Shown here one piece after another: positions 11,145-64,000 of a stretch of DNA of 64,000 bases; positions within the stretch are counted from its first letter, which is position 1, and each line of letters begins with the position of its first letter. A model generated the notes under the pieces. The model was not told the origin of the DNA and ran no database searches. It was given only the letters and a program-made list of their open reading frames with translations. A program made the position numbers and the translations under genes. The DNA comes from Clostridia bacterium (GTDB lineage Bacteria > Bacillota > Clostridia > UMGS1840): positions 50 to 64,049 of the forward strand of contig JAZOQZ010000062.1 in assembly GCA_045656345.1 (NCBI GenBank), written 5' to 3'.

Positions 11145-11810
11145 TTGAAAAAAAATAGAAGAAAAAAATTCCGTTGGATAGCCCTTTGTGTGATTGGCGT
11201 TCCGATAATCGTGGTGTTGTTTTATTGGTTGACCAATTTGTTCACTGGGCTGACTCCTGATGATATTTTGAGGTTTGCCGGGGAAAATGTTGTGATTGAA
11301 GTAATCCTGGTGTTGTTGCTTTATGCTGTAAAATCGGTATTGTTTTTTATTCCCGTGATGTTTTTATATATGTTGACAGGGAATTTGTTTCCGCCGGTAT
11401 ACAGTATTTTTATCAATATCATCGGACTTTCCATCACCATGTCTCTCACCTTCTGGTTAGGGAAAAAACTTGGAAAAAACTTTGTAAAGAAAATGATTCG
11501 TAAGTCTCCCAAGGTGCAACGCTTTATGGAGAACAGCGATAAAAGTCAGGTGACCTTGTTTGCTCTTCGGGCGTCCAATATTTTCCCTGTGGAATTGATT
11601 TCACTGGTTTGTGGATGCACCGGTTACCGTTACTGGAGCTTTCTGGGGTTGTCTCTTCTGGCAATGGTGCCCAGTTTGATTCCCTTTACTTTGATGGGAG
11701 ATTCCTTAAAAGACCCCTTATCTCCGGGATTTTTAATTCCTTTCGGAGTTGTTCTGGCGATGATGTTGGGCTCTCTGATTGTTTATAAAATGAAGCATAA
11801 AGATGAATAA
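11145..11810 (+). CDS. TVP38/TMEM64 (DedA superfamily, SNARE-associated/VTT domain) membrane protein
   Basis: Multi-TM protein with a VTT-like core FIPVMFLYMLTGNLF...GLSITMSLTFWLGKKLGKNFV. Confidence 0.65.
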   Translation: MKKNRRKKFRWIALCVIGVPIIVVLFYWLTNLFTGLTPDDILRFAGENVVIEVILVLLLYAVKSVLFFIPVMFLYMLTGNLFPPVYSIFINIIGLSITMSLTFWLGKKLGKNFVKKMIRKSPKVQRFMENSDKSQVTLFALRASNIFPVELISLVCGCTGYRYWSFLGLSLLAMVPSLIPFTLMGDSLKDPLSPGFLIPFGVVLAMMLGSLIVYKMKHKDE

Positions 11811-56733: not shown

Positions 56734-57981
56734 TTACATAATAGATTCGCCCCGAAGCCATAGACCGGTATAAAAGAAACACAGTACCAAGCTTACGGCA
56801 ATCATACCATAGCGCACATATTTGTTTTTCACAGATGCAAACACGATGTAGAGCGGTATGCAGGCACACATGTAGCGGGAACCGCTGATGAGCCAACCGT
56901 GGGTGTAGCAGGTGAAGATGTAAGCACCAAGATACACTAAATATTCGGTGCGTACCTTTTTGAAAATACCCAAGAAGATGGTAAGGGTGCCAATGAAAAA
57001 CAGGGCCAGTTGCGGCCAGTATATGAAATTTGAAAGACCCGGATAACTTTGTGCCATATTGTAGCTGTAGGATAAGGTTTTGCCGAACCATTGTGCTTTG
57101 TTGTACCAGGGTTCTGATGCCTGAAACGCTAAGTATTGGAACCAGTTTCCAAAAAGAACTTTGTTCATCAGGAGATACACAAAAAATCCTGCGGGAATCA
57201 GTATTGACCAAGAGAAGGTTTTTGTATTGAACTTTCTTTGTCTAAATAAGTCTCTTGCCACACTCACTAAAGCACACGCAAACAACAACACGCCCTGTGT
57301 TCTGGAAAGACAAGCCAAAAATCCGAAAATTGCCATCCACACAGGCTTTTTGGTTCGTAAAAAGTACAGGCATAAAAGGGTGGTTAAAAGAAACACACTC
57401 TCGGTAAATACTGCACTGTAAAACATGCTGAAGGGCGCCACAATCATCAGTGCAAGCCCGCTGAAGGACTGCTTTTCGCTGTAATCCAACCGCAGCAATT
57501 CATAAAGCACACAGCAACTTGCCATAAAGGCCAGATTGGACACCACAATGCCGCTAAGCAGATAATTGTTGAACAACACATTGAATATCCGGATGCAAAG
57601 CGGATACAGCGGATAAAATACGATAAGTTTTGCCTGTTCTCCCACAGCGGTGTAGCCGTGTTCTGCCAGATACAAATAGTGAGGAGAGTCTCCTGAAACG
57701 CTAAATACCCTGGTAATCTGTTCCCAAAAAGAAATGTCGGTTTCGTTAATCCAATATCCAACCAGATAAATAAGCCAACGGGCAAGTAACGAAATCAACG
57801 CAATCCAAATCCACTTCTGAAAGTTTGGCTTTTTGCTGTTTGAAATTTTAGCCACAACTTTATTTTTTTTAAGTTTTTTCTGTTTATTTGACTCCGTCTT
57901 TTCCTGAAAAAAGGCAATTAGCACACCGATTCCTGCCGCAATGAGCAGGGCGGAGCCGAAGATGTTTAGGAAATCTGCCAT
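56734..57981 (-). CDS. Polytopic GT-C-like glycosyltransferase (PIG-V/PMT_2/DUF2029-like mannosyltransferase family, tentative)
   Basis: 415 aa with >10 TM segments. Early loop SGDSPHYLYLAEHGY...VFYPLYP resembles bacterial PIG-V-type mannosyltransferases. Confidence 0.45.
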   Translation of the reverse strand: MADFLNIFGSALLIAAGIGVLIAFFQEKTESNKQKKLKKNKVVAKISNSKKPNFQKWIWIALISLLARWLIYLVGYWINETDISFWEQITRVFSVSGDSPHYLYLAEHGYTAVGEQAKLIVFYPLYPLCIRIFNVLFNNYLLSGIVVSNLAFMASCCVLYELLRLDYSEKQSFSGLALMIVAPFSMFYSAVFTESVFLLTTLLCLYFLRTKKPVWMAIFGFLACLSRTQGVLLFACALVSVARDLFRQRKFNTKTFSWSILIPAGFFVYLLMNKVLFGNWFQYLAFQASEPWYNKAQWFGKTLSYSYNMAQSYPGLSNFIYWPQLALFFIGTLTIFLGIFKKVRTEYLVYLGAYIFTCYTHGWLISGSRYMCACIPLYIVFASVKNKYVRYGMIAVSLVLCFFYTGLWLRGESIM

Positions 57982-58108
57982 AAGAGTTCTCCTTTTTTAA
58001 AATGGTCTGGTCAATTTCATTATAAACCATTTTTCAGAAAATGCAAGAGCGTTTTTTCGATGTTTCCAAAAAAGACGGTGGGTTCTTGTGAAAATAATAC
58101 GAAAAAAC

Positions 58109-58137
58109 TTGAAAATATCAAGAATGTATGCTATAAT
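58109..58137 (+). promoter_or_regulatory. Promoter of the apgM-family gene
   Basis: TTGAAA, 17-nt spacer, TGcTATAAT. Confidence 0.6.
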
Positions 58138-58201
58138 AAAAAATAAAAAATTTTTACATTGCTCGACATTGAATACGATGCATCTGTAAGGAGACAGCAA
58201 T

Positions 58202-59410
58202 ATGAAATATGTAGTTTTTTTATGTGATGGGATGGCTGATTTAAAACTGGAGAAATTCGGTAATAAAACTCTTTTGGAAGCAGCCAATACTCCCAATATG
58301 GATCAATACGCAAAGAAAGCAATTTTAGGCACCTTAAAAACCGTTCCCGACCATTTGTCACCGGGAAGTGATGTTTGTAACCTATCGGTAATGGGATACG
58401 ATTCCAATTTGTATTATACAGGTCGTTCTCCTTTAGAGGCGGCAAGTATCGGCGTTACCTTGGCAGATAATGAGACCTCATTCCGTGCCAATTTAGTCAC
58501 TCTTTCGGGAGAAGGCGAATACGAAGACCTAATCATGGAGGATTACAGTGCAGGGGAAATCAAAACTGCGGACGCAAAGAAGCTCATCGAAGATTTGATG
58601 CCTGTGTTAAATGATGAAACAACCAAGATTTATCCCGGGGTATCTTACCGTCATCTACTGGTGTTATCCGATAAAACCGTGGATGGGAAATTAATCCCTC
58701 CGCACGATATTTCCAAGCGTCCGGTGAAAGAATATCTGCCTAAGGATGCAGAGATTCTTTCGCTTATGAAAAAAAGCTATGAATTTTTGAAAAACCATCC
58801 CTACAATCTGGAAAGAATCGGAGCCGGCAAGAAGCCTGCATCTTCCATTTGGGTATGGGGAGAAGGAAAGCGTCCGAAAATGGATAGCTTTTATGATAAA
58901 TTTGGTGTGAAAGGCTCTGTTATCAGCGCCGTGGACTTGATAAAAGGAATTGGTATTTTAACGGGGATGCGCTCCATTGAAGTGGAAAATGTGACCGGAA
59001 ATATTGATACCAATTTTGATGGAAAAGCTCAGGCTTGTATTGATGCTTTAAAAGAGGGCGACGATTTCGTTTATGTGCATATGGAAGCACCTGATGAATG
59101 TGGGCACCGTTTTGAAGCAGACAACAAAAAATTGGCAATTGAGCTGATTGACGAAAAGGTAATTGGTCCTGTTTGCCGTTATTTAGAGGGATGCGGAGAG
59201 GATTTTGCTATTTTGGTAACTCCTGACCATCCCACACCGATTGCCACCGGTACTCACGATAGGGCACCCGTTCCGTTTTTTGCTTATTATAACAAAAAAG
59301 AAGCGGAAGGCAATTTATACAATGAAGACACTGCCAAAGAAGCCGGGTTACACATTGAAAACGGCTACGAACTGATGGGTCAATTTTTAAATTTGGATTT
59401 GTGGAAATAA
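58202..59410 (+). CDS. apgM: Cofactor-independent phosphoglycerate mutase, archaeal-type ApgM family (the family also contains proposed homoserine kinases)
   Basis: MKYVVFLCDGMAD...NTPNMD...PGSDVCNLSVMGYD...VHMEAPDECGH...TPDHPTP, metalloenzyme superfamily motifs. There is no threonine-pathway context here. Confidence 0.75.
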   Translation: MKYVVFLCDGMADLKLEKFGNKTLLEAANTPNMDQYAKKAILGTLKTVPDHLSPGSDVCNLSVMGYDSNLYYTGRSPLEAASIGVTLADNETSFRANLVTLSGEGEYEDLIMEDYSAGEIKTADAKKLIEDLMPVLNDETTKIYPGVSYRHLLVLSDKTVDGKLIPPHDISKRPVKEYLPKDAEILSLMKKSYEFLKNHPYNLERIGAGKKPASSIWVWGEGKRPKMDSFYDKFGVKGSVISAVDLIKGIGILTGMRSIEVENVTGNIDTNFDGKAQACIDALKEGDDFVYVHMEAPDECGHRFEADNKKLAIELIDEKVIGPVCRYLEGCGEDFAILVTPDHPTPIATGTHDRAPVPFFAYYNKKEAEGNLYNEDTAKEAGLHIENGYELMGQFLNLDLWK

Positions 59411-59479
59411 TTGAACCAGCAACAGAGGAACACTTACGAGAAAAAACAGCAGGATAAAATGTTGGAGGTAAGTTAGCAA

Positions 59480-59551
59480 ATGGAGCTGTTTATTTCCCTG
59501 CTGATGGAAATTGACGCTGCAGACATTCATAAGGAATCCAAAGAAAAATAA
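59480..59551 (+). CDS. Possible 23-aa upstream ORF (MELFISLLMEIDAADIHKESKEK)
   Basis: ATG lies 10 nt after GGAGGT. Its stop overlaps the AAGGAGAG RBS of yitT. No homology evidence. Confidence 0.2.
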   Translation: MELFISLLMEIDAADIHKESKEK

Positions 59552-59562
59552 GGAGAGATTAT

Positions 59563-60435
59563 TTGAAACAGTTATTGGAAGAACTCAGATTTAAAAATAT
59601 ATTGCTTTTAACGGTGGCAGGATTGATCAACGCTTTTGGCATCACGGTGTTTTTATCGCCGGTCAAATTGTATGACAGCGGGATTTCCGGCACCTCTATG
59701 CTGCTTTCTCAGATTACTCCCGATTATCTTTCATTATCATTGTTTTTGTTAATTTTAAATATTCCATTGTTTGCTTTCGGATACAAAAAACAGGGGATTA
59801 CCTTCACGGTGTATTCCATTTACACGGTTGTCGTTTATTCATTGGGGGCCTGGCTGATTACCGATGTGTTGCCGTTGGATGTTGCTTTGTCCTCTCCTTT
59901 TGCAGGAAACGACTTGCTCTTATGCGCCATATTTGGCGGTTTGATTTCCGGTGTCGGAAGCGGTCTTACCATCCGTTTTGGCGGTGCTATTGACGGAGTT
60001 GAGGTTATGGCAGTGATTTTTGCTAAAAAGATTGGTGTTACCGTGGGCACTTTCGTAATGGCGTATAATGTGATTTTATATGTTATCAGCGGTGTTTTGT
60101 TAAACAGCTGGATTTTACCGCTGTATTCTATCTTAACTTATTATGTGGGACTAAAAACCATCGACTTTATTGTGGAAGGGATTGACCGTTCCAAAGCGGC
60201 GATGATTATTACCGAAAAGGCAGACGAGGTTTGCGAAGCTTTGGTGCAGACCTTTGAAAGCGGTGCCACCAGAATTGCGGCAAAAGGCGGTTATTCCAAT
60301 CAGGAAAAAACCGTGATTTATTTCATTGTGGACCGTTTTCAGATTTCTAAAATGAGAGAACTGGTTCATAAAATTGATAAAACTGCATTTATCACCATCA
60401 CCGAGGTGGCAGATGTTTATAAAGCAAATATGTAG
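59563..60435 (+). CDS. YitT-family membrane protein (DUF2179 C-terminal domain)
   Basis: LLLTVAGLINAFGITVFLSPVKLYDSGISG N-terminus, 5-6 TM segments, C-terminal soluble DUF2179-like domain (ITEKADEV...YFIVDRFQISKMRELV). TTG start after AAGGAGAG. Confidence 0.85.
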   Translation: MKQLLEELRFKNILLLTVAGLINAFGITVFLSPVKLYDSGISGTSMLLSQITPDYLSLSLFLLILNIPLFAFGYKKQGITFTVYSIYTVVVYSLGAWLITDVLPLDVALSSPFAGNDLLLCAIFGGLISGVGSGLTIRFGGAIDGVEVMAVIFAKKIGVTVGTFVMAYNVILYVISGVLLNSWILPLYSILTYYVGLKTIDFIVEGIDRSKAAMIITEKADEVCEALVQTFESGATRIAAKGGYSNQEKTVIYFIVDRFQISKMRELVHKIDKTAFITITEVADVYKANM

Positions 60436-60479
60436 ACTTTAGATTGTTGCAGAGTATATCAACATCAAAGGGGAAAAAT

Positions 60480-63149
60480 ATGAAACCAAAAACTGAAACA
60501 TATTCAGGCAAAGCGGTACGCACTTTTACCGATCGTGAAAGCCCAAGAGCGGCATTTTGGGATAGCTACCGTAGCATAAAAGAGCAGATGCAAACCGGAA
60601 ATGCAGACATTTGTGTGTTGCATTATTACGGTGTGGGCGGTATCGGGAAAAGCACGCTGTTAACAAAACTGACCGATGAATTATGTGAAAATATCAAGAA
60701 GCCCAGGTATGTGCAGTTCGATTTTTCTATTACAAAAGACAGCCGGCAAGTGTTATCCCGTATGGCGGAATTTATGACTCGTCAGTACGGCTTTTCGTTT
60801 CCTCAGTTTGATATTGCCAATCTTACTTATGCCAAGCATACTTATATAGATTTTACTGAAAAAGAGGTGCAACAGTTTTGCCAGAAAAGTCCGTTTTTAA
60901 GACTGACTCTAAAAATGCTGGACATCATTTCCGGCTCTGTTGCTACCAAAATTGTTGAGCTTGCCGACGATATTCAGTCTGAAGTGCGAACCTACTTAAA
61001 AAACCATGAAAAAAGTATCCGACAAATGGATCATATGGGAGTTGCCGAATTATATGGGATGTTACCCTATTATTTTGCAATGGATATGAAAAACAATCTT
61101 AAGAATTACACAGAACCTTTTGTGTTTTTTTTAGATACTTACGAAGCTCTGGTCAATGAACTTTCGTCTGTTGGGAATCCGTTTATTAATGATCTTTGGC
61201 TTCGGGGTGAAAACGGTCTGATTCAGTGGCTGCCGAATGTGCTTTGGGTAATCTGTGGCAGAGATAAGCTCAAATGGGAAAGCTTTGATGCAGATTGGAG
61301 CGAAGCATTACAACAGCATCTGTTGGGGAGTCTTTCCGATAGAGACAGCGATAGTTTCTTAAAGAATGCCGGTGTAGAAGATGAAACGTTACGCAAACAA
61401 TTGTATCAGTTGACCGGTGGAACACCCGTGTATCTGGATCTTTGTATGGACCGACACGATGCTATCATCAAAAGAGGGGAAACGCCCCATATCGAGATGT
61501 TTGGTAACACACCGGAAGAACTGGTTGATCGTTTGGTGTGTTATATGGATGACAGCATGCAGGATTTCGTCTATTTTCTGACTTGTCTGGAATGTTGGGA
61601 CGATAAGACGGCATCAGAGATTGCAGAGAATGTGTTACTTGGGTTTCCGCATACGCTGTACGAACGAATCAAAGGACTTTCATTTATCAGCGAAGTGGAG
61701 AACGGTTTCTTTGTGATTCATCCCACCGTTCGGGAGGTATTGGCAACAAAATGCCCGTTGGCTCTTCGGAAAAAGACGGGAGAAGTGATGCAGAAATACT
61801 TTTTGCAACATCTTTCGTTATCAAAAAATCCGGACGAAACATATGCATTGAGATTGTTGCAGTTGTTACGCTCCGGATGGCTTTTGGGATATACCCGTGA
61901 ACAATTCTGTGAATTTTATAAAAGCAAAGTCGGTGTTCGGTTCCAATGGATGGTAGATGCGGGATTATACAGTCAGATTGATACAATCTGGAATTCTCTG
62001 TATCAGTATGCTGCCAAGAAAACGGACGATTTACTGTTTATTGCGATTTCCAATGAAAAAGGGTATCTTCTTTCGAGCCAACAGTTATGGGAAGAAGCAT
62101 ACCAACAGCAGAAAAAGACCCTGTCGCTTGCTACTGATATTTTAGGAGAGAATCACGACGAAACACTGATTGCACTTGGAAATTTAGCTAACACTTTACT
62201 GGAACTTGGCAAGTTTGACGATGCACTTTCGTTGCAGTTAAAATGCTTGCGCTTACAAACTGACAGCAGCGGGGAAGAACACCCCAGAACATTGCTAGCC
62301 AAGCAAAATCTGGCAACTACCATAGCACAACGAAAAACTCCGGAGAACCAGCAAAAAGCTGCCGAACTGCTCCGTGAAGTTGTGAAAACAGGAACAAGAC
62401 AATACGGGGAACAGTTTCCTGTTGTGATGACAGCAAAGGAAAATCTGGCCTCGGTTTTGGGAGATATCGGCAATCATCAGGAAGAATTTGACCTGCATCA
62501 ACAAGTACTGGAAAAACAGATGGAAGTGCTTGGCGAAAAACATCCTGCAACCCTTCGCACGAAAAGCAATCTTGCCACCTGTTTGTCCGATCTGGAAAAA
62601 CCGGAAGAAGCTTTGCTCTTATCCTGTGAGGTGTTTGAGCAGCGAAAAGAAGTGCTTGGCGAAAGCTGTGAAGCAACATTACGAACAATGGAAAATGTGG
62701 CATATATCCTGGATGATCTTGAGAGAAAAGAAGAAGCTTTTGAATGGTTTCAAAAGGCACTTGTAAAACGTCGGCAAACTTTTGGCAATTATCATCCCAA
62801 TACTCTGAAGGCAATAGAGTCTTTTGCAATATTTTGCGGAAAAAACGGATGGGAAGAACTTGCATTACAGCTGCATCGTGAAACAATGTCCGGTTGGCAG
62901 AGTGTTTATGGAGCAGAGCATCCGGTTGTGTTCAGAGCTACCAACAATCTGGCTTATTTGTTGGTTCAGCAAAAAGAATATGCCGAGGCGGAGCATCTGC
63001 TATGTGCGTTGTTATCCGCATGCGAAGCCTATTACGAGCAAGCACATCCGGCGATTTTATACACGGCAGAGAAGTATTACGATGTGCTGATAAAAAGTGA
63101 GCAGTATGACAAAGCAAAGCAGATTGCAGAACAATATCATATTCAGTAA
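60480..63149 (+). CDS. STAND-class NTPase: NB-ARC-like P-loop ATPase + winged-helix + eight TPR_12-type repeats, no N-terminal effector domain (889 aa)
   Basis: Walker A GVGGIGKSTLL about 55 aa from the start, Walker B FVFFLDTYE, VICGRDK, GxP-like LTGGTPVYL, MHD-like FFVIHP. Eight 42-aa units follow with the pattern E-x-H-P-x-T-L-x(4)-N-L-A (62148-63146). ATG at 60480 follows AAAGGGG. Confidence 0.85.
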   Translation: MKPKTETYSGKAVRTFTDRESPRAAFWDSYRSIKEQMQTGNADICVLHYYGVGGIGKSTLLTKLTDELCENIKKPRYVQFDFSITKDSRQVLSRMAEFMTRQYGFSFPQFDIANLTYAKHTYIDFTEKEVQQFCQKSPFLRLTLKMLDIISGSVATKIVELADDIQSEVRTYLKNHEKSIRQMDHMGVAELYGMLPYYFAMDMKNNLKNYTEPFVFFLDTYEALVNELSSVGNPFINDLWLRGENGLIQWLPNVLWVICGRDKLKWESFDADWSEALQQHLLGSLSDRDSDSFLKNAGVEDETLRKQLYQLTGGTPVYLDLCMDRHDAIIKRGETPHIEMFGNTPEELVDRLVCYMDDSMQDFVYFLTCLECWDDKTASEIAENVLLGFPHTLYERIKGLSFISEVENGFFVIHPTVREVLATKCPLALRKKTGEVMQKYFLQHLSLSKNPDETYALRLLQLLRSGWLLGYTREQFCEFYKSKVGVRFQWMVDAGLYSQIDTIWNSLYQYAAKKTDDLLFIAISNEKGYLLSSQQLWEEAYQQQKKTLSLATDILGENHDETLIALGNLANTLLELGKFDDALSLQLKCLRLQTDSSGEEHPRTLLAKQNLATTIAQRKTPENQQKAAELLREVVKTGTRQYGEQFPVVMTAKENLASVLGDIGNHQEEFDLHQQVLEKQMEVLGEKHPATLRTKSNLATCLSDLEKPEEALLLSCEVFEQRKEVLGESCEATLRTMENVAYILDDLERKEEAFEWFQKALVKRRQTFGNYHPNTLKAIESFAIFCGKNGWEELALQLHRETMSGWQSVYGAEHPVVFRATNNLAYLLVQQKEYAEAEHLLCALLSACEAYYEQAHPAILYTAEKYYDVLIKSEQYDKAKQIAEQYHIQ

Positions 63150-63173
63150 TATATCAAAAAAAGGAGAATTGCT

Positions 63174-63974
63174 ATGGGATTTTTAACTGGTAAAACTGCG
63201 ATTATCACAGGAGCAGGTTATGCAGTGCTGTCTGACGGCAGATGCGGCTCCATTGGCTACGGAATTGCAACCGCCTATGCAAAAGAGGGCGCAAATCTTG
63301 TGATTACCGGCCGTAATGTGGCAAAATTAGAAAAAGCAAAAGAAGAACTTGAAGCAAAATACGGCATCAAAGTGTTGGCACTTTCTGCAGATATTTCTGC
63401 AGGCAGTGACAATGAAGCAACTGCTAAAATGGTTGCAGAAGAAGCTATGAAGGCATTCGGCAGAATTGATGTGTTAATCAACAACGCCCAAGCCTCTGCA
63501 TCCGGTGTTACCATTCAGGATCACACCACCGAGCAGTTTGATCTGGCGATGTATTCCGGTTTGTATGCCACCTTCTATTATATGAAGGCTTGTTACCCTT
63601 ATCTGAAGGAAACTAAGGGGTCTATTGTGAACTTTGCATCCGGAGCAGGATTGTTTGGTAATTATGGGCAGTGTTCCTATGCAGCAGCAAAAGAAGGAAT
63701 CCGTGGACTGAGCCGTGTGGCTGCAACCGAATGGGCAAAAGACGGCATCAACACCAACGTGGTTTGTCCTCTTGCCTGGACCGCTCAGCTGGAAAACTTT
63801 GAAAAAGCGTATCCCGATGCGTTCAAAGCAAATGTAAAAATGCCTCCGGCAGGACATTTTGGTGATCCTGAAACTGAAATCGGCAGAGTTTGTGTGCAAC
63901 TGGCAAATCCCGATTTTAAATATTTAAATGGCGAAACCCTGACCTTAGAAGGCGGTATGGGATTGCGTCCGTAA
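63174..63974 (+). CDS. Short-chain dehydrogenase/reductase (SDR) with an insertion in the Gly-rich cofactor motif
   Basis: TGAG-YAVLSDGRCG-SIGYGIA in place of the classical TGxxxGIG. NNAQ, catalytic S...YAAAK. RBS AAAGGAGAA lies 24 nt after the STAND stop. Confidence 0.85.
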   Translation: MGFLTGKTAIITGAGYAVLSDGRCGSIGYGIATAYAKEGANLVITGRNVAKLEKAKEELEAKYGIKVLALSADISAGSDNEATAKMVAEEAMKAFGRIDVLINNAQASASGVTIQDHTTEQFDLAMYSGLYATFYYMKACYPYLKETKGSIVNFASGAGLFGNYGQCSYAAAKEGIRGLSRVAATEWAKDGINTNVVCPLAWTAQLENFEKAYPDAFKANVKMPPAGHFGDPETEIGRVCVQLANPDFKYLNGETLTLEGGMGLRP

Positions 63975-64000
63975 GAAAGGAAAGAAGAAATGATTTTTGA

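What the first reader, a model, noticed from the sequence alone, without database searches (positions are those of the whole stretch)
60480..63149. Effector-less NB-ARC/TPR STAND NTPase embedded between yitT and an SDR with no terminators
The 889-aa protein has the full STAND/NB-ARC motif set: Walker A GVGGIGKST, Walker B FVFFLDTYE, VICGRDK, GGTPVYL, and an MHD-like VIHP in a winged-helix region. Eight regular 42-aa TPR_12 (kinesin-light-chain-like) repeats follow. This architecture matches bacterial NLR-like and Avs-type sensors and AfsR/MalT-type regulators. However, only ~55 aa precede the P-loop, and these look like the start of the ATPase domain (FTDRESP...). There is therefore no nuclease, TIR, protease, HTH or other output domain, and none follows the TPRs. 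I see no hairpin plus T-run between apgM, the 23-aa uORF, yitT, the STAND gene, the SDR and the next ORF starting at 63990. The gaps are 44 and 24 nt, so the sensor may be co-transcribed with a membrane protein and an oxidoreductase. Either its output partner is a neighbour or unlinked, or it is a sensor-only or regulatory STAND. No mobile-element or defence genes flank it, which weakens a defence-island reading.
Basis: partly seen in the sequence, partly recalled or inferred. Interest (0 to 1): 0.55.

Follow-up and report, generated by a model that had tools for sequence, protein, structure and literature searches.

The report
Effector-less, hypervariable STAND–TPR sensor gene
This gene encodes an ATP-driven molecular switch joined to a repeat-built ligand-binding arm, with no attached "weapon" or DNA-binding part. 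It belongs to a large unstudied family, and its sensor half is swapped between closely related bacteria, as happens with immune receptors, so it is probably a receptor whose output is still unknown.

Summary

Structure prediction and Foldseek confirm a STAND-type core (nucleotide-binding, helical and winged-helix domains), followed by an arm and a TPR solenoid. The closest solved architecture is PH0952 with its N-terminal domain removed.

No Pfam, NCBIfam or PADLOC model of an NTPase reaches its cut-off. The core also carries an unusual helical insertion of about 125 aa between Walker A and Walker B.

The family is large: 1,605 clusters at 50% identity with E<=1e-30. In all 150 best representatives the core starts at the N-terminus. 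No effector domain was found in the 15 members scanned in full.

yitT and the SDR are not partners. No neighbouring gene is conserved across about 80 loci, and 80 SDR orthologue loci from other contexts lack the STAND gene.

New result: among four syntenic genomes the flanking genes are 62-98% identical (most 77-98%), but the STAND protein drops to 45-47%. Divergence starts right after the yitT stop codon and ends about 25 nt before the SDR start codon. A recombination breakpoint lies inside the TPR array. The pattern recurs clearly in one other lineage and more weakly in two.

Best reading (about 0.45): a single-gene, NLR-like receptor for a fast-evolving ligand, with an unknown, non-canonical output. 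Interest is moderate.

The parts
60480..63149 (+). Coding sequence of the 889-aa STAND-TPR protein, stop codon included. This is the variable cassette.
   Evidence: ORF list. 100% and 86% identical database proteins of 889 aa. Full-length AlphaFold2 model with mean pLDDT 85.6.
60436..60479 (+). 44-nt spacer after the yitT stop codon, with the GGGG ribosome-binding site at about 60470-60473. It is the upstream edge of the hypervariable segment.
   Evidence: Sequence. The alignment with L001, L002 and L027 diverges immediately after the yitT stop codon.
60480..60539 (+). Residues 1-20: a short, basic, disordered N-terminal tail. It is not a domain.
   Evidence: pLDDT below 50 for residues 1-18 and 6-20 in the two models. 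No match elsewhere in the window.
60540..61334 (+). Nucleotide-binding domain, residues about 21-285. Includes the FTDRE helix, Walker A (60630-60656), Walker B (61119-61145) and the sensor-1 GR motif in VICGRDK (61248-61268).
   Evidence: Motif coordinates. Invariant K57, D219, E222, G260 and R261. Strand order in the models. Foldseek hits to NLRP2, MalT, Apaf-1, CED-4 and ORC/Cdc6.
60732..61109 (+). All-helical insertion of about 125 aa, residues about 85-210, between strand beta-2 and Walker B. Conserved FxFPxFD (60792-60812) and LPxxFAxD (61062-61085) motifs flank a variable, most hydrophobic, low-confidence stretch (residues about 137-165).
   Evidence: Seven helices, H88 to H207, in the models. 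pLDDT below 50 at residues 148-164 in the core model and about 60-66 in the full-length model. Invariant F107 and D202. Highest 19-residue hydropathy is 1.12 at residue 144, below the level expected for a membrane helix. Weak KAP_NTPase hits spanning the insertion in 11 of 23 relatives.
61335..61550 (+). Helical domain (ARC1-like), residues about 286-357, with the GxP motif GGTPVYL (61416-61436).
   Evidence: Invariant G314 and P316. Helices H287-354.
61551..61757 (+). Winged-helix domain, residues about 358-426, with the MHD-like His414 in VIHP (61713-61724).
   Evidence: Helices plus a beta-hairpin at residues 403-413. H414 at least 90% conserved in the 23-sequence alignment.
61758..62030 (+). 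Helical arm, residues about 427-517, linking the winged-helix domain to the regular repeats.
   Evidence: Helices H427-512 in the model. Best global PDB match is 6MFV, PH0952 without its N-terminal domain, which has the layout core-arm-TPR (PMC6468293).
62031..63146 (+). About nine 42-residue TPR_12/TPR_10 repeats, residues 518-889. Putative ligand sensor and the most variable part of the gene.
   Evidence: Pfam TPR_12 and TPR_10. Lag-42 autocorrelation. Matches to kinesin light chain, LGN and APPBP2 TPR domains. DNA identity to L002 and L027 is 8-59% here, against 60-77% in the core part of the gene (60507-61806) and 69-92% in the flanking genes. Recombination breakpoint at residues about 540-560 between L002 and L027.
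58109..58137 (+). Best promoter-like site in the region (TTGAAA-17-TATAAT with an upstream TG), ahead of apgM. Candidate promoter of an apgM-yitT-STAND-SDR transcript.
   Evidence: Consensus scan, 11 of 12 matches. The same hexamers and spacing occur upstream of apgM in L001. This is a consensus match only, not evidence of function.

Best explanation
The gene encodes a soluble, catalytically competent STAND switch with the layout core - arm - 42-residue TPR solenoid. It belongs to a large, uncharacterised clade found mostly in Bacillota. The whole clade lacks any fused effector or DNA-binding domain.

The most likely function is an NLR-like intracellular receptor in a biological conflict, sensing a protein or peptide from a phage, another mobile element or a competitor. 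The proposed steps are:
1. The TPR solenoid holds the ADP-bound core shut, as in PH0952 (inferred from the fold).
2. A fast-evolving ligand binds the TPR and releases this autoinhibition (inferred from hypervariability and sensor swapping).
3. ADP is exchanged for ATP and the core oligomerises (inferred from the invariant Walker A, Walker B, sensor-1, GxP and His motifs).
4. The oligomer acts without a fused enzyme. It could sequester the ligand, act through the family-specific helical insertion in the nucleotide-binding domain, or recruit an unlinked host protein. This step is unknown and is the weakest link.

In this genome the gene is probably read through from the apgM/yitT promoter. That link is positional, not functional.
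For: **Shown**
- STAND fold and motifs.
- The core is under strong purifying selection: omega 0.01-0.16 up to residue 420, rising to 0.19 in the window spanning residues 401-460. The TPR half is relaxed: omega 0.12-0.37 between the window and L001.
- Family-wide absence of an N-terminal domain. Walker A sits at residues 40-77 in all 120 homologues. The core starts at residues 1-44 in all 150 best representatives, apart from one two-stretch fragment. There are 1,605 clusters at E<=1e-30.
- C-termini are only TPRs of varying number, poorly scoring helical regions, or in one case a cytoplasmic SBP_bac_5 domain. So sensor modules are exchangeable.
- Hypervariable cassette. In four syntenic genomes the flanks are 62-98% identical at protein level (most 77-98%), but the STAND protein is 86%, 45% and 47%. 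DNA identity collapses exactly at the yitT stop codon and recovers about 25 nt before the SDR start codon.
- Between the window and L001, the STAND dS (0.55) is lower than that of every flanking gene (0.68-2.3). The allele's history is therefore decoupled from its flanks.
- L002 and L027 share a core that is about 90% identical. From residue about 550 onward dS is saturated and dN is 0.3-0.6, which marks a recombination breakpoint inside the TPR array.
- The pattern recurs elsewhere: strongly in L041/L044/L037 (flanks 85-99%, STAND 50-64%), partly in L070/L078 (flanks 81-99%, STAND 70%) and weakly in L068/L071 (flanks 94-99%, STAND 88%).
- Patchy distribution across Clostridia, uncultured Bacilli, Synergistes, Fibrobacter and Saccharibacteria. 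Several genomes carry tandem or multiple copies.
- Some homologues lie beside defence genes: Cas12a with a WYL regulator, a GIY-YIG nuclease and an integrase; Abi_2 directly upstream in three loci; pAgo/SIR2, type I restriction-modification, AbiD and SoFic among 150 neighbours.
- Published background: most prokaryotic defence STANDs use TPR-like sensors to bind phage proteins (PMC13581612).
Against: - Every characterised Avs or bNACHT defence protein needs an effector domain. In PMC13581612, deleting or mutating the effector abolished cell death. This family has none.
- No PADLOC model matches.
- Most contexts examined in detail are housekeeping: the window lineage, L003, L087, L088 and L089.
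- I could not compute a proper defence-neighbourhood enrichment.
- The family is absent from 50,697 phage records and from IMG/VR, and is nearly absent from plasmids. Its GC content equals that of its surroundings.
- No window of the gene reaches dN/dS above 1. The variability is explained by recombination and relaxed constraint, not by demonstrated positive selection.
- No ligand, partner or phenotype is known.
Confidence: 0.45

Rival explanations
1. A housekeeping or regulatory STAND switch. It would be an ATP-dependent scaffold of the MalT, AfsR or PH0952 type that has no DNA-binding domain. It would control a host process by protein-protein contact and be expressed as part of the apgM-yitT-STAND-SDR-DUF386 operon.
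For: - No terminator-like site lies between the genes, the gaps are 44 and 24 nt, and a strong promoter-like site occurs only upstream of apgM. The same layout is seen in L001.
- The position is stable in four genomes.
- Most contexts are housekeeping.
- The family is not carried on phages or plasmids.
- The closest solved architecture, PH0952, is a predicted transcription factor (PMC6468293).
- PMC13581612 classes 391 of 589 STAND clades as not defence-associated.
Against: - No neighbour is conserved across the family.
- SDR orthologues elsewhere lack the STAND gene.
- A housekeeping regulator would not be expected to be 45% identical between genomes whose flanking genes are mostly 80-98% identical, nor to swap its sensor half.
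- The distribution is patchy and copy number varies.
- There is no helix-turn-helix or other output domain.
Confidence: 0.2
2. A receptor for a self- or kin-derived peptide signal, comparable to a quorum-sensing 'pherotype' or an allorecognition locus. Allelic diversification of the sensor would track a diversifying signal rather than a pathogen.
For: - TPR domains, and the SBP_bac_5 domain found in relative P0092, are typical binders of peptides or extended chains. This is from my own knowledge of RRNPP receptors and OppA-type proteins; the domain itself is shown.
- Two deeply diverged allele classes sit at one syntenic site with sharp boundaries. From my own knowledge this resembles the comQXP and agr polymorphisms.
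- The surroundings are housekeeping genes.
Against: - No candidate peptide gene travels with the cassette. The spacers are 44 and 24 nt, and the 23-codon ORF upstream of yitT lies in an insertion present only in the window genome.
- No conserved small ORF, exporter or processing gene is found among the neighbours.
- No DNA-binding or kinase output is present.
Confidence: 0.15
3. An orphaned or decaying NLR. It would be the remnant of an effector-bearing receptor that lost its output domain and now drifts.
For: - No effector domain is present.
- dN/dS is raised in the TPR half.
Against: - The effector-less layout is shared by at least 1,605 clusters at 50% identity, with intact reading frames.
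- The catalytic residues are invariant.
- Omega in the core is 0.01-0.16 up to residue 420.
- All four syntenic alleles are exactly 889 aa.
Confidence: 0.03

Closest known systems
Antiviral STAND NTPases (Avs1-21; Gao 2022, from my own knowledge; Lee et al. 2026, PMC13581612) and bacterial NACHT proteins (bNACHT; bioRxiv 10.1101/2022.07.19.500537)
   Same: - Single-gene STAND NTPase with a large C-terminal sensor, mostly TPR-like.
- Sensor modules are exchanged between relatives.
- Patchy distribution.
- Some relatives lie beside defence genes.
   Different: - No N-terminal or C-terminal effector in any family member scanned.
- No PADLOC hit.
- Contexts are mostly housekeeping genes.
- The nucleotide-binding domain carries a helical insertion of about 125 aa.
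- No experimental phenotype is known.
PH0952 of Pyrococcus horikoshii (PDB 6MFV) and the MalT, AfsR and GutR-type STAND transcription regulators
   Same: - Best global structural match: Foldseek E 2.9e-10, TM-score 0.53 normalised to the target.
- The layout core-arm-TPR matches, so the 'double autoinhibition' resting state probably applies.
   Different: - Those proteins carry an ArsR, LuxR or SARP DNA-binding domain. This protein has none.
- Sequence similarity is undetectable by profile search against PDB sequences.
NPHP3, fungal NLRs and bacterial NB-ARC/NACHT proteins with 42-residue TPR_10/TPR_12 repeats
   Same: - Best, though sub-threshold, Pfam hits for the core are NPHP3_N and NB-ARC.
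- The repeats are the 42-residue kinesin-light-chain-like type.
- In fungi such receptors are highly polymorphic (PMC13449251).
   Different: - Fungal NLRs carry N-terminal HET, HeLo, lipase or similar domains.
- Their repeats are often near-identical at the DNA level. Here the repeat region has no DNA-level tandem repeat.
KAP family P-loop NTPases (Pfam PF07693)
   Same: A large insertion lies between Walker A and Walker B. Weak PF07693 hits span it in 11 of 23 relatives, with a best E-value of 2e-6.
   Different: - From my own knowledge, KAP insertions contain transmembrane helices. Here the highest hydropathy is 1.12.
- From my own knowledge, KAP proteins lack the winged-helix-plus-TPR architecture.
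- The window protein itself gives no KAP hit.

Membership tests
STAND NTPase superclass | P-loop core with Walker A, Walker B (hhhhD..E) and a sensor-1 arginine | tested here: met
   GVGGIGKST at residues 51-59, FVFFLDTYE at 214-222 and GR at 260-261. K57, D219, E222, G260 and R261 are invariant in 23 and 53 homologues.
STAND NTPase superclass | Helical domain with a GxP motif, followed by a winged-helix domain with a conserved histidine (three-part core) | tested here: met
   G314 and P316 are invariant and H414 is at least 90% conserved in the 23-sequence alignment. The models show helices 287-354 and a winged helix at 358-426. Foldseek matches NLRP2, MalT, Apaf-1, CED-4, plant NLRs and ORC/Cdc6 at E 2e-7 to 3e-4.
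STAND NTPase superclass | C-terminal sensor built of repeats | tested here: met
   TPR_12 at E 4.5e-41. About nine 42-residue repeats.
STAND NTPase superclass | At least one effector domain at a protein end (described as general but not universal; PMC6468293) | tested here: not met
   Pfam, NCBIfam and PADLOC find none. The trait is family-wide.
NB-ARC (Pfam PF00931) | Score at or above the gathering cut-off of 23.5 bits | tested here: not met
   15.8-16.6 bits, covering only the P-loop region at residues 32-99. 19 of 23 relatives give weak hits, with a best E-value of 4e-5.
NPHP3_N / NACHT (PF24883, PF05729) | Score at or above the gathering cut-offs of 24.8 and 26.7 bits | tested here: not met
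   NPHP3_N scores 20.3-21.1 bits for the window protein. One relative, P0071, passes with 27.7 bits. NACHT gives only weak hits, in 5 of 23 relatives.
Avs / bNACHT anti-phage STANDs | Match to a curated defence-system model | tested here: not met
   In PADLOC-DB v2 the best hit is AriA at 17 bits (E 8e-4). No Avs or NLR model matches.
Avs / bNACHT anti-phage STANDs | Fused effector (nuclease, SIR2, TIR, protease, transmembrane domain and similar) | tested here: not met
Avs / bNACHT anti-phage STANDs | Enrichment next to known defence systems (P<=1e-4 against a background of 0.0153; PMC13581612) | tested here: inconclusive
   Defence-type hits (AbiD, pAgo/SIR2, type I restriction-modification, SoFic and others) occur among 150 neighbours from about 55 loci, and one locus has Cas12a with a WYL regulator. 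However, the hits could not be assigned to individual loci or to complete systems. Five of six fully annotated contexts are housekeeping.
Avs / bNACHT anti-phage STANDs | Protection against phage | not testable with these tools
   Needs an experiment.
MalT / LAL / AfsR / PH0952-type STAND transcription factors | DNA-binding domain (LuxR, SARP or ArsR helix-turn-helix) | tested here: not met
   No helix-turn-helix family appears in the Pfam or NCBIfam hits. Only 20 disordered residues precede the ATPase fold, and the protein ends within the last TPR.
KAP NTPase | Transmembrane helices inserted in the P-loop domain, and PF07693 at or above 20 bits | tested here: not met
   An insertion is present at the right place, but the highest 19-residue hydropathy is 1.12. 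The window protein gives no PF07693 hit at E<=0.01.
NLRs with amyloid-type (BASS-like) signalling motifs | A short N-terminal motif shared with the C-terminus of an adjacent effector protein | tested here: not met
   The N-terminal 45 aa were searched against the six-frame translation of the whole window. The best hit has E 0.21 and is not adjacent. No neighbour is conserved.

The most novel reading that the evidence does not exclude
This clade would be a new class of bacterial NLR-like immune receptor that needs no fused effector. The ATP-bound oligomer itself would be the effector. It could act through the family-specific helical insertion of about 125 aa in the nucleotide-binding domain, which has a conserved frame and a variable hydrophobic hairpin and might be exposed on activation, rather like the CC helix of plant resistosomes. 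Alternatively it could simply sequester an essential phage protein. In either case the TPR sensor modules would be shuffled by recombination at fixed chromosomal sites.
Probability: 0.1. Interest if true: 0.8.

Novelty: new variant of a known kind. Interest (0 to 1): 0.45.

Why it matters
Bacterial STAND and NLR-like receptors are now a central topic in anti-phage immunity. Every characterised example signals through a fused effector. This case points to a very large clade, mostly from gut-associated Bacillota, that has at least 1,600 clusters at 50% identity. No Pfam, NCBIfam or PADLOC model captures its ATPase core.

The clade keeps a fully conserved ATPase switch and a recombining, hypervariable sensor, yet has no effector and no fixed partner gene. 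If it is immune, it implies an output mode not yet described for bacterial NLRs. If it is not immune, it is a clear example of a non-defence STAND that nonetheless evolves like a receptor.

Either way the syntenic allele series (window, L001, L002, L027) gives ready-made natural variants for experiments. For this particular window the practical conclusion is more modest: an uncharacterised receptor-like ATPase, functionally unrelated to yitT and the SDR.

Tried and rejected
1. **yitT or the SDR as partner: rejected.** They are adjacent only in the window's own lineage, and 80 SDR orthologue loci lack the STAND gene.
2. **Any conserved neighbour as effector: rejected.** 150 neighbours fall into 139 Pfam families and the most frequent occurs three times. 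Recurrent neighbours are lineage-specific housekeeping genes: a P-type ATPase, a D-Ala-D-Ala carboxypeptidase, His_Phos_1 and PHO4/PhoU.
3. **Shared N-terminal/C-terminal amyloid-type motif: no match**.
4. **Known defence family: none** in PADLOC.
5. **Sequence-level relative with a solved structure: none** beyond the P-loop.
6. **Phage, IMG/VR or plasmid carriage: none, none, and three distant hits**.
7. **RNA element or riboswitch in 57900-64000: none**.
8. **DNA-level tandem repeats or concerted evolution of the TPR units: none.** TRF found only one unrelated 15-nt repeat at 60815-60845.
9. **Hidden effector in long or non-TPR relatives: none.** They hold only TPRs, or in one case an SBP_bac_5 domain.
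10. **Positive selection (dN/dS above 1) in sliding windows: not found.** dS is saturated in the deep comparisons.
11. **Membrane insertion of the nucleotide-binding-domain insertion:** hydropathy is too low for a transmembrane helix.
12. **Foreign base composition: none**.
13. **Searches that could not be done.** The exact window protein is not indexed in the contig collection. No supplementary tables of PMC13581612 are held, so the clade could not be looked up.
14. **Literature searches for 'effector-less' STANDs returned nothing relevant**.


Full report

Yes. The only long ORF at this site runs 60444 (TTG) / 60480 (ATG) to 63149 on the + strand. The ATG at 60480 is preceded by a GGGG ribosome-binding site and gives 889 aa. 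This matches one 100%-identical and one 86%-identical database protein, and two 45-46% homologues of exactly the same length.

In alignments of 23 and 53 homologues the residues expected to be catalytic or structural in a STAND NTPase are invariant or nearly so:
- K57 (Walker A)
- D219 and E222 (Walker B)
- G260 and R261 (sensor 1)
- G314 and P316 (GxP motif)
- H414 (MHD-like histidine; at least 90% conserved in the 23-sequence alignment)

The 42-residue periodicity of the C-terminal half is clear. BLOSUM autocorrelation is +0.585 at lag 42 and -0.46 or lower at every other lag from 30 to 49. Pfam gives TPR_12 at E 4.5e-41 and TPR_10 at E 3.2e-39. The repeat region has no DNA-level tandem repeat.

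Only 50 residues precede the P-loop. In both AlphaFold2 models, residues 20-50 form the helix and first strand of the ATPase fold, and residues 1-20 are disordered.

No terminator-like site falls in any intergenic gap from apgM to the SDR. In the sister genome L001 the first strong + strand terminator-like hairpin follows the DUF386 gene downstream of the SDR. The same strong promoter-like site lies upstream of apgM in both genomes.

**2. What is it structurally?**

The residue 1-470 model (pLDDT 78) and the full-length model (pLDDT 85.6) give this layout:
- nucleotide-binding domain
- helical domain
- winged-helix domain
- helical arm
- a solenoid of about 11 helix pairs

Foldseek against the PDB matches the core to NLRP2, MalT, the archaeal ATPase paby2304, ORC/Cdc6, Apaf-1, CED-4 and plant NLRs, at E 2e-7 to 3e-4. 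The full-length model matches best to 6MFV, which is Pyrococcus PH0952 without its N-terminal DNA-binding domain. That protein is a STAND with a TPR sensor (E 2.9e-10, TM-score 0.53 normalised to the target; PMC6468293). The TPR half matches the kinesin light chain, LGN and APPBP2 TPR domains.

At the sequence level the core is an outlier:
- No Pfam NTPase family reaches its cut-off. NPHP3_N scores 20-21 bits against 24.8, and NB-ARC scores 16-17 against 23.5.
- Across 23 relatives the weak hits scatter over NB-ARC (19), NPHP3_N (15), AAA_16 (13), ATPase_2 (13), KAP_NTPase (11), nSTAND6 (8) and NACHT (5).
- A family profile finds nothing in PDB sequences beyond the P-loop.
- NCBIfam matches only the TPR half, to FxSxx_TPR at 180 bits against a cut-off of 300.
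- PADLOC finds nothing meaningful.

A distinctive feature is a seven-helix insertion of about 125 residues between strand beta-2 and Walker B (residues about 85-210). It is framed by the conserved motifs FxFPxFD and LPxxFAxD (F107 and D202 invariant). It encloses a variable stretch that is the most hydrophobic part of the protein and is modelled with low confidence. Its hydropathy of 1.12 is too low for a membrane helix.

**3. Is the lack of an effector a quirk of this gene?**

No. It is a property of the whole family:
- In all 120 listed homologues Walker A lies at residues 40-77.
- An exhaustive HMMER search of 1.84 billion representative proteins with the core profile finds 5,186 proteins at E<=1e-3, 3,040 at E<=1e-10 and 1,605 at E<=1e-30. 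In all 150 best hits (393-1,887 aa) the core begins at residues 1-44, apart from one two-stretch fragment.
- The longest members consist only of more TPRs.
- Members with poor TPR scores have helical C-termini without any enzymatic domain. One, P0092, carries a cytoplasmic SBP_bac_5 solute-binding domain instead (E 2.8e-39).

So the architecture is a core plus an interchangeable ligand-binding module, and nothing else.

**4. Are the neighbours partners?**

No.
- A scan of one genome per species found 376 relatives. They occur mostly in Clostridia (Oscillospiraceae, Acutalibacteraceae), with others in uncultured Bacilli, Synergistes, Fibrobacter and Saccharibacteria.
- I called genes in 80 of these loci and clustered the neighbours within five genes on either side. 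The commonest neighbour family occurs in 7 loci and is a P-type ATPase. The next is a D-Ala-D-Ala carboxypeptidase confined to one lineage.
- The 150 genes in the two positions on either side, from about 55 dereplicated loci, fall into 139 Pfam families. The most frequent, GNAT, occurs three times.
- yitT, the SDR, apgM and DUF386 accompany the gene only in the window's own lineage: the window, L001 (same as L012), L002 (same as L007) and L027.
- Conversely, 80 metagenomic loci holding 82-94% identical SDR orthologues have no STAND, yitT or apgM upstream, and sit in other contexts.
- The N-terminal 45 residues resemble nothing else in the window.

The terminator-free arrangement therefore most likely means passive co-transcription, not a functional module.

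**5. The new and most informative result: the gene is a hypervariable cassette.**

Protein identity between the window and its three syntenic relatives:

| Gene | Identity |
|---|---|
| F420-ligase-like | 92-95% |
| GFO_IDH | 77-81% |
| DUF3048 | 85-86% |
| DUF1294-like small ORF (94 aa) | 62-63% |
| 415-aa membrane protein | 70-72% |
| apgM | 86-88% |
| yitT | 86-87% |
| SDR | 98% |
| STAND | 86% (L001), 45% (L002), 47% (L027) |

- At the DNA level, identity to L002 and L027 falls from about 88% to about 53% right after the yitT stop codon.
- It stays at 60-77% through the core and drops to 8-59% in the TPR half.
- It returns to 92% about 25 nt before the SDR start codon.
- Between the window and L001, the STAND dS (0.55) is lower than that of every flanking gene (0.68-2.3). 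The allele therefore has a history separate from its flanks.
- L002 and L027 share a core that is about 90% identical (dN 0.033, dS 0.46). From residue about 550 onward dS is saturated and dN is 0.3-0.6. This marks a recombination breakpoint inside the repeat array.
- The core is under strong purifying selection: omega 0.01-0.16 up to residue 420. The TPR half is more relaxed, at 0.12-0.37 between the window and L001. No window exceeds 1.
- The pattern recurs in other lineages. It is strong in L041/L044/L037 (flanks 85-99%, STAND 50-64%), partial in L070/L078 (flanks 81-99%, STAND 70%) and weak in L068/L071 (flanks 94-99%, STAND 88%). It is absent from a group of uncultured Bacilli whose members have a non-TPR C-terminus.
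- Several genomes carry tandem or multiple copies.
- GC content is not anomalous: 42.5% in the gene against 43.2% in the window.

**6. Is there an association with defence?**

The evidence is mixed.

For:
- One homologue (P0021, locus L006) lies directly downstream of a WYL-WCX regulator and next to Cas12a. It is followed by overlapping genes of unknown function, a GIY-YIG nuclease and an integrase.
- Three divergent homologues have an Abi_2 gene directly upstream on the same strand.
- The neighbour census also contains AbiD, pAgo/SIR2, type I restriction-modification, SoFic, Schlafen-AlbA_2 and AAA_14 hits.

Against:
- Five of six fully annotated, independent contexts are housekeeping.
- The family is absent from 50,697 phage genomes and from IMG/VR, and is nearly absent from plasmids.

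I could not assign the PADLOC hits to individual loci, so I give no enrichment statistic. The published benchmark is a 1.5% background and P<=1e-4 (PMC13581612).

**7. Most likely mechanism.**

Established:
- It is an intact STAND switch with a TPR sensor.
- The sensor is exchanged by recombination.
- There is no fused output domain and no fixed partner gene.

Inferred from how the superfamily behaves (PMC6468293, PMC13581612):
- The TPR and arm hold the ADP-bound core closed.
- Binding of a protein or peptide ligand releases it.
- ATP binding drives oligomerisation.

The hypervariability, patchy distribution, copy-number variation and occasional defence-island location make a conflict ligand the best guess. 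That ligand could come from a phage, another mobile element or a competitor. I put this at about 0.45.

The output step is unknown. Candidates are sequestration of the ligand, an activity of the family-specific insertion in the nucleotide-binding domain, or recruitment of an unlinked host factor.

Rival explanations:
- A housekeeping scaffold or regulator (about 0.2). The context favours it, but the hypervariability and the lack of conserved neighbours count against it.
- A receptor for a self-derived peptide, with pherotype-like diversification (about 0.15). No linked peptide gene is present.
- A decaying remnant (about 0.03). This is contradicted by the purifying selection on the core and by the size of the family.

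**8. Comparison with known systems and novelty.**

The protein works like an NLR or Avs-type receptor. It fails the membership tests for:
- Avs and bNACHT (no effector, no model hit)
- NB-ARC, NACHT and NPHP3_N at their curated cut-offs
- MalT, AfsR and PH0952-type regulators (no DNA-binding domain)
- KAP NTPases (no transmembrane insertion)

It is best filed as a new variant of a known kind: a large, uncurated STAND clade defined by a core at the extreme N-terminus, an insertion in the nucleotide-binding domain, and an exchangeable sensor. PMC13581612 may already have a clade for it among its 589. I could not check this because the supplementary tables are not held.

Interest is moderate. Effector-less 'TPR plus ATPase' proteins are common annotations and the function here remains inferred. 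The cassette-like sensor swapping in conserved synteny, together with the family-wide absence of an effector, does make a concrete and testable question.

Noticed in passing
window 59412-59545: An insertion of about 120-130 nt lies in the apgM-yitT spacer of the window genome only. It is absent from the syntenic genomes L001, L002 and L027. It has no Rfam match and no terminator-like site.
   Followed up: partly
L006 6911-13199 (locus of homologue P0021): Here a STAND homologue lies 52 nt downstream of a WYL-WCX regulator gene. Overlapping genes of 102 aa and 452 aa follow it, neither with a Pfam hit, and then a 130-aa GIY-YIG nuclease. Cas12a lies upstream and an integrase downstream. This may be a multi-gene variant in which the effector is encoded separately.
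   Followed up: partly
L050 953-1891, and the genes directly upstream of the STAND in L052 and L058: An Abi_2 (AbiD/AbiF-like) gene lies directly upstream, on the same strand, of divergent STAND homologues of about 1,160-1,230 aa in three genomes. The Abi_2 proteins are only 33-57% identical to each other. They could act as a separately encoded effector in this subclade.
   Followed up: partly
protein P0092 (1198 aa), residues 675-1066: This family member carries a bacterial solute-binding protein family 5 domain (SBP_bac_5, E 2.8e-39) after the core, in place of TPRs. It would be a cytoplasmic peptide- or solute-binding sensor fused to a STAND switch.
   Followed up: no
L039 379-5616 and L023 1747-7300: Two family members are encoded next to each other on the same contig, and some genomes (SVCU01, CAMMDS01, JAFPCL01) have copies on separate contigs. 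This points to local expansion of paralogues.
   Followed up: no
window 58109-58137 and L001 4891-4919: The same strong promoter-like site (TTGAAA-17-TATAAT with an upstream TG) lies upstream of apgM in both genomes. In L001 the first strong + strand terminator-like hairpin (16-bp stem plus a T-run, 11542-11577) comes only after DUF386. This is consistent with one long apgM-yitT-STAND-SDR-DUF386 transcript.
   Followed up: partly
window 63174-63974 and loci L090-L169: The SDR is very conserved. It is 98% identical among the syntenic genomes, with dN/dS 0.01-0.02, and 82-94% identical in at least 583 metagenome stretches. In those other taxa it sits in different contexts, for example after a 224-aa and 112-aa gene pair.
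   Followed up: partly
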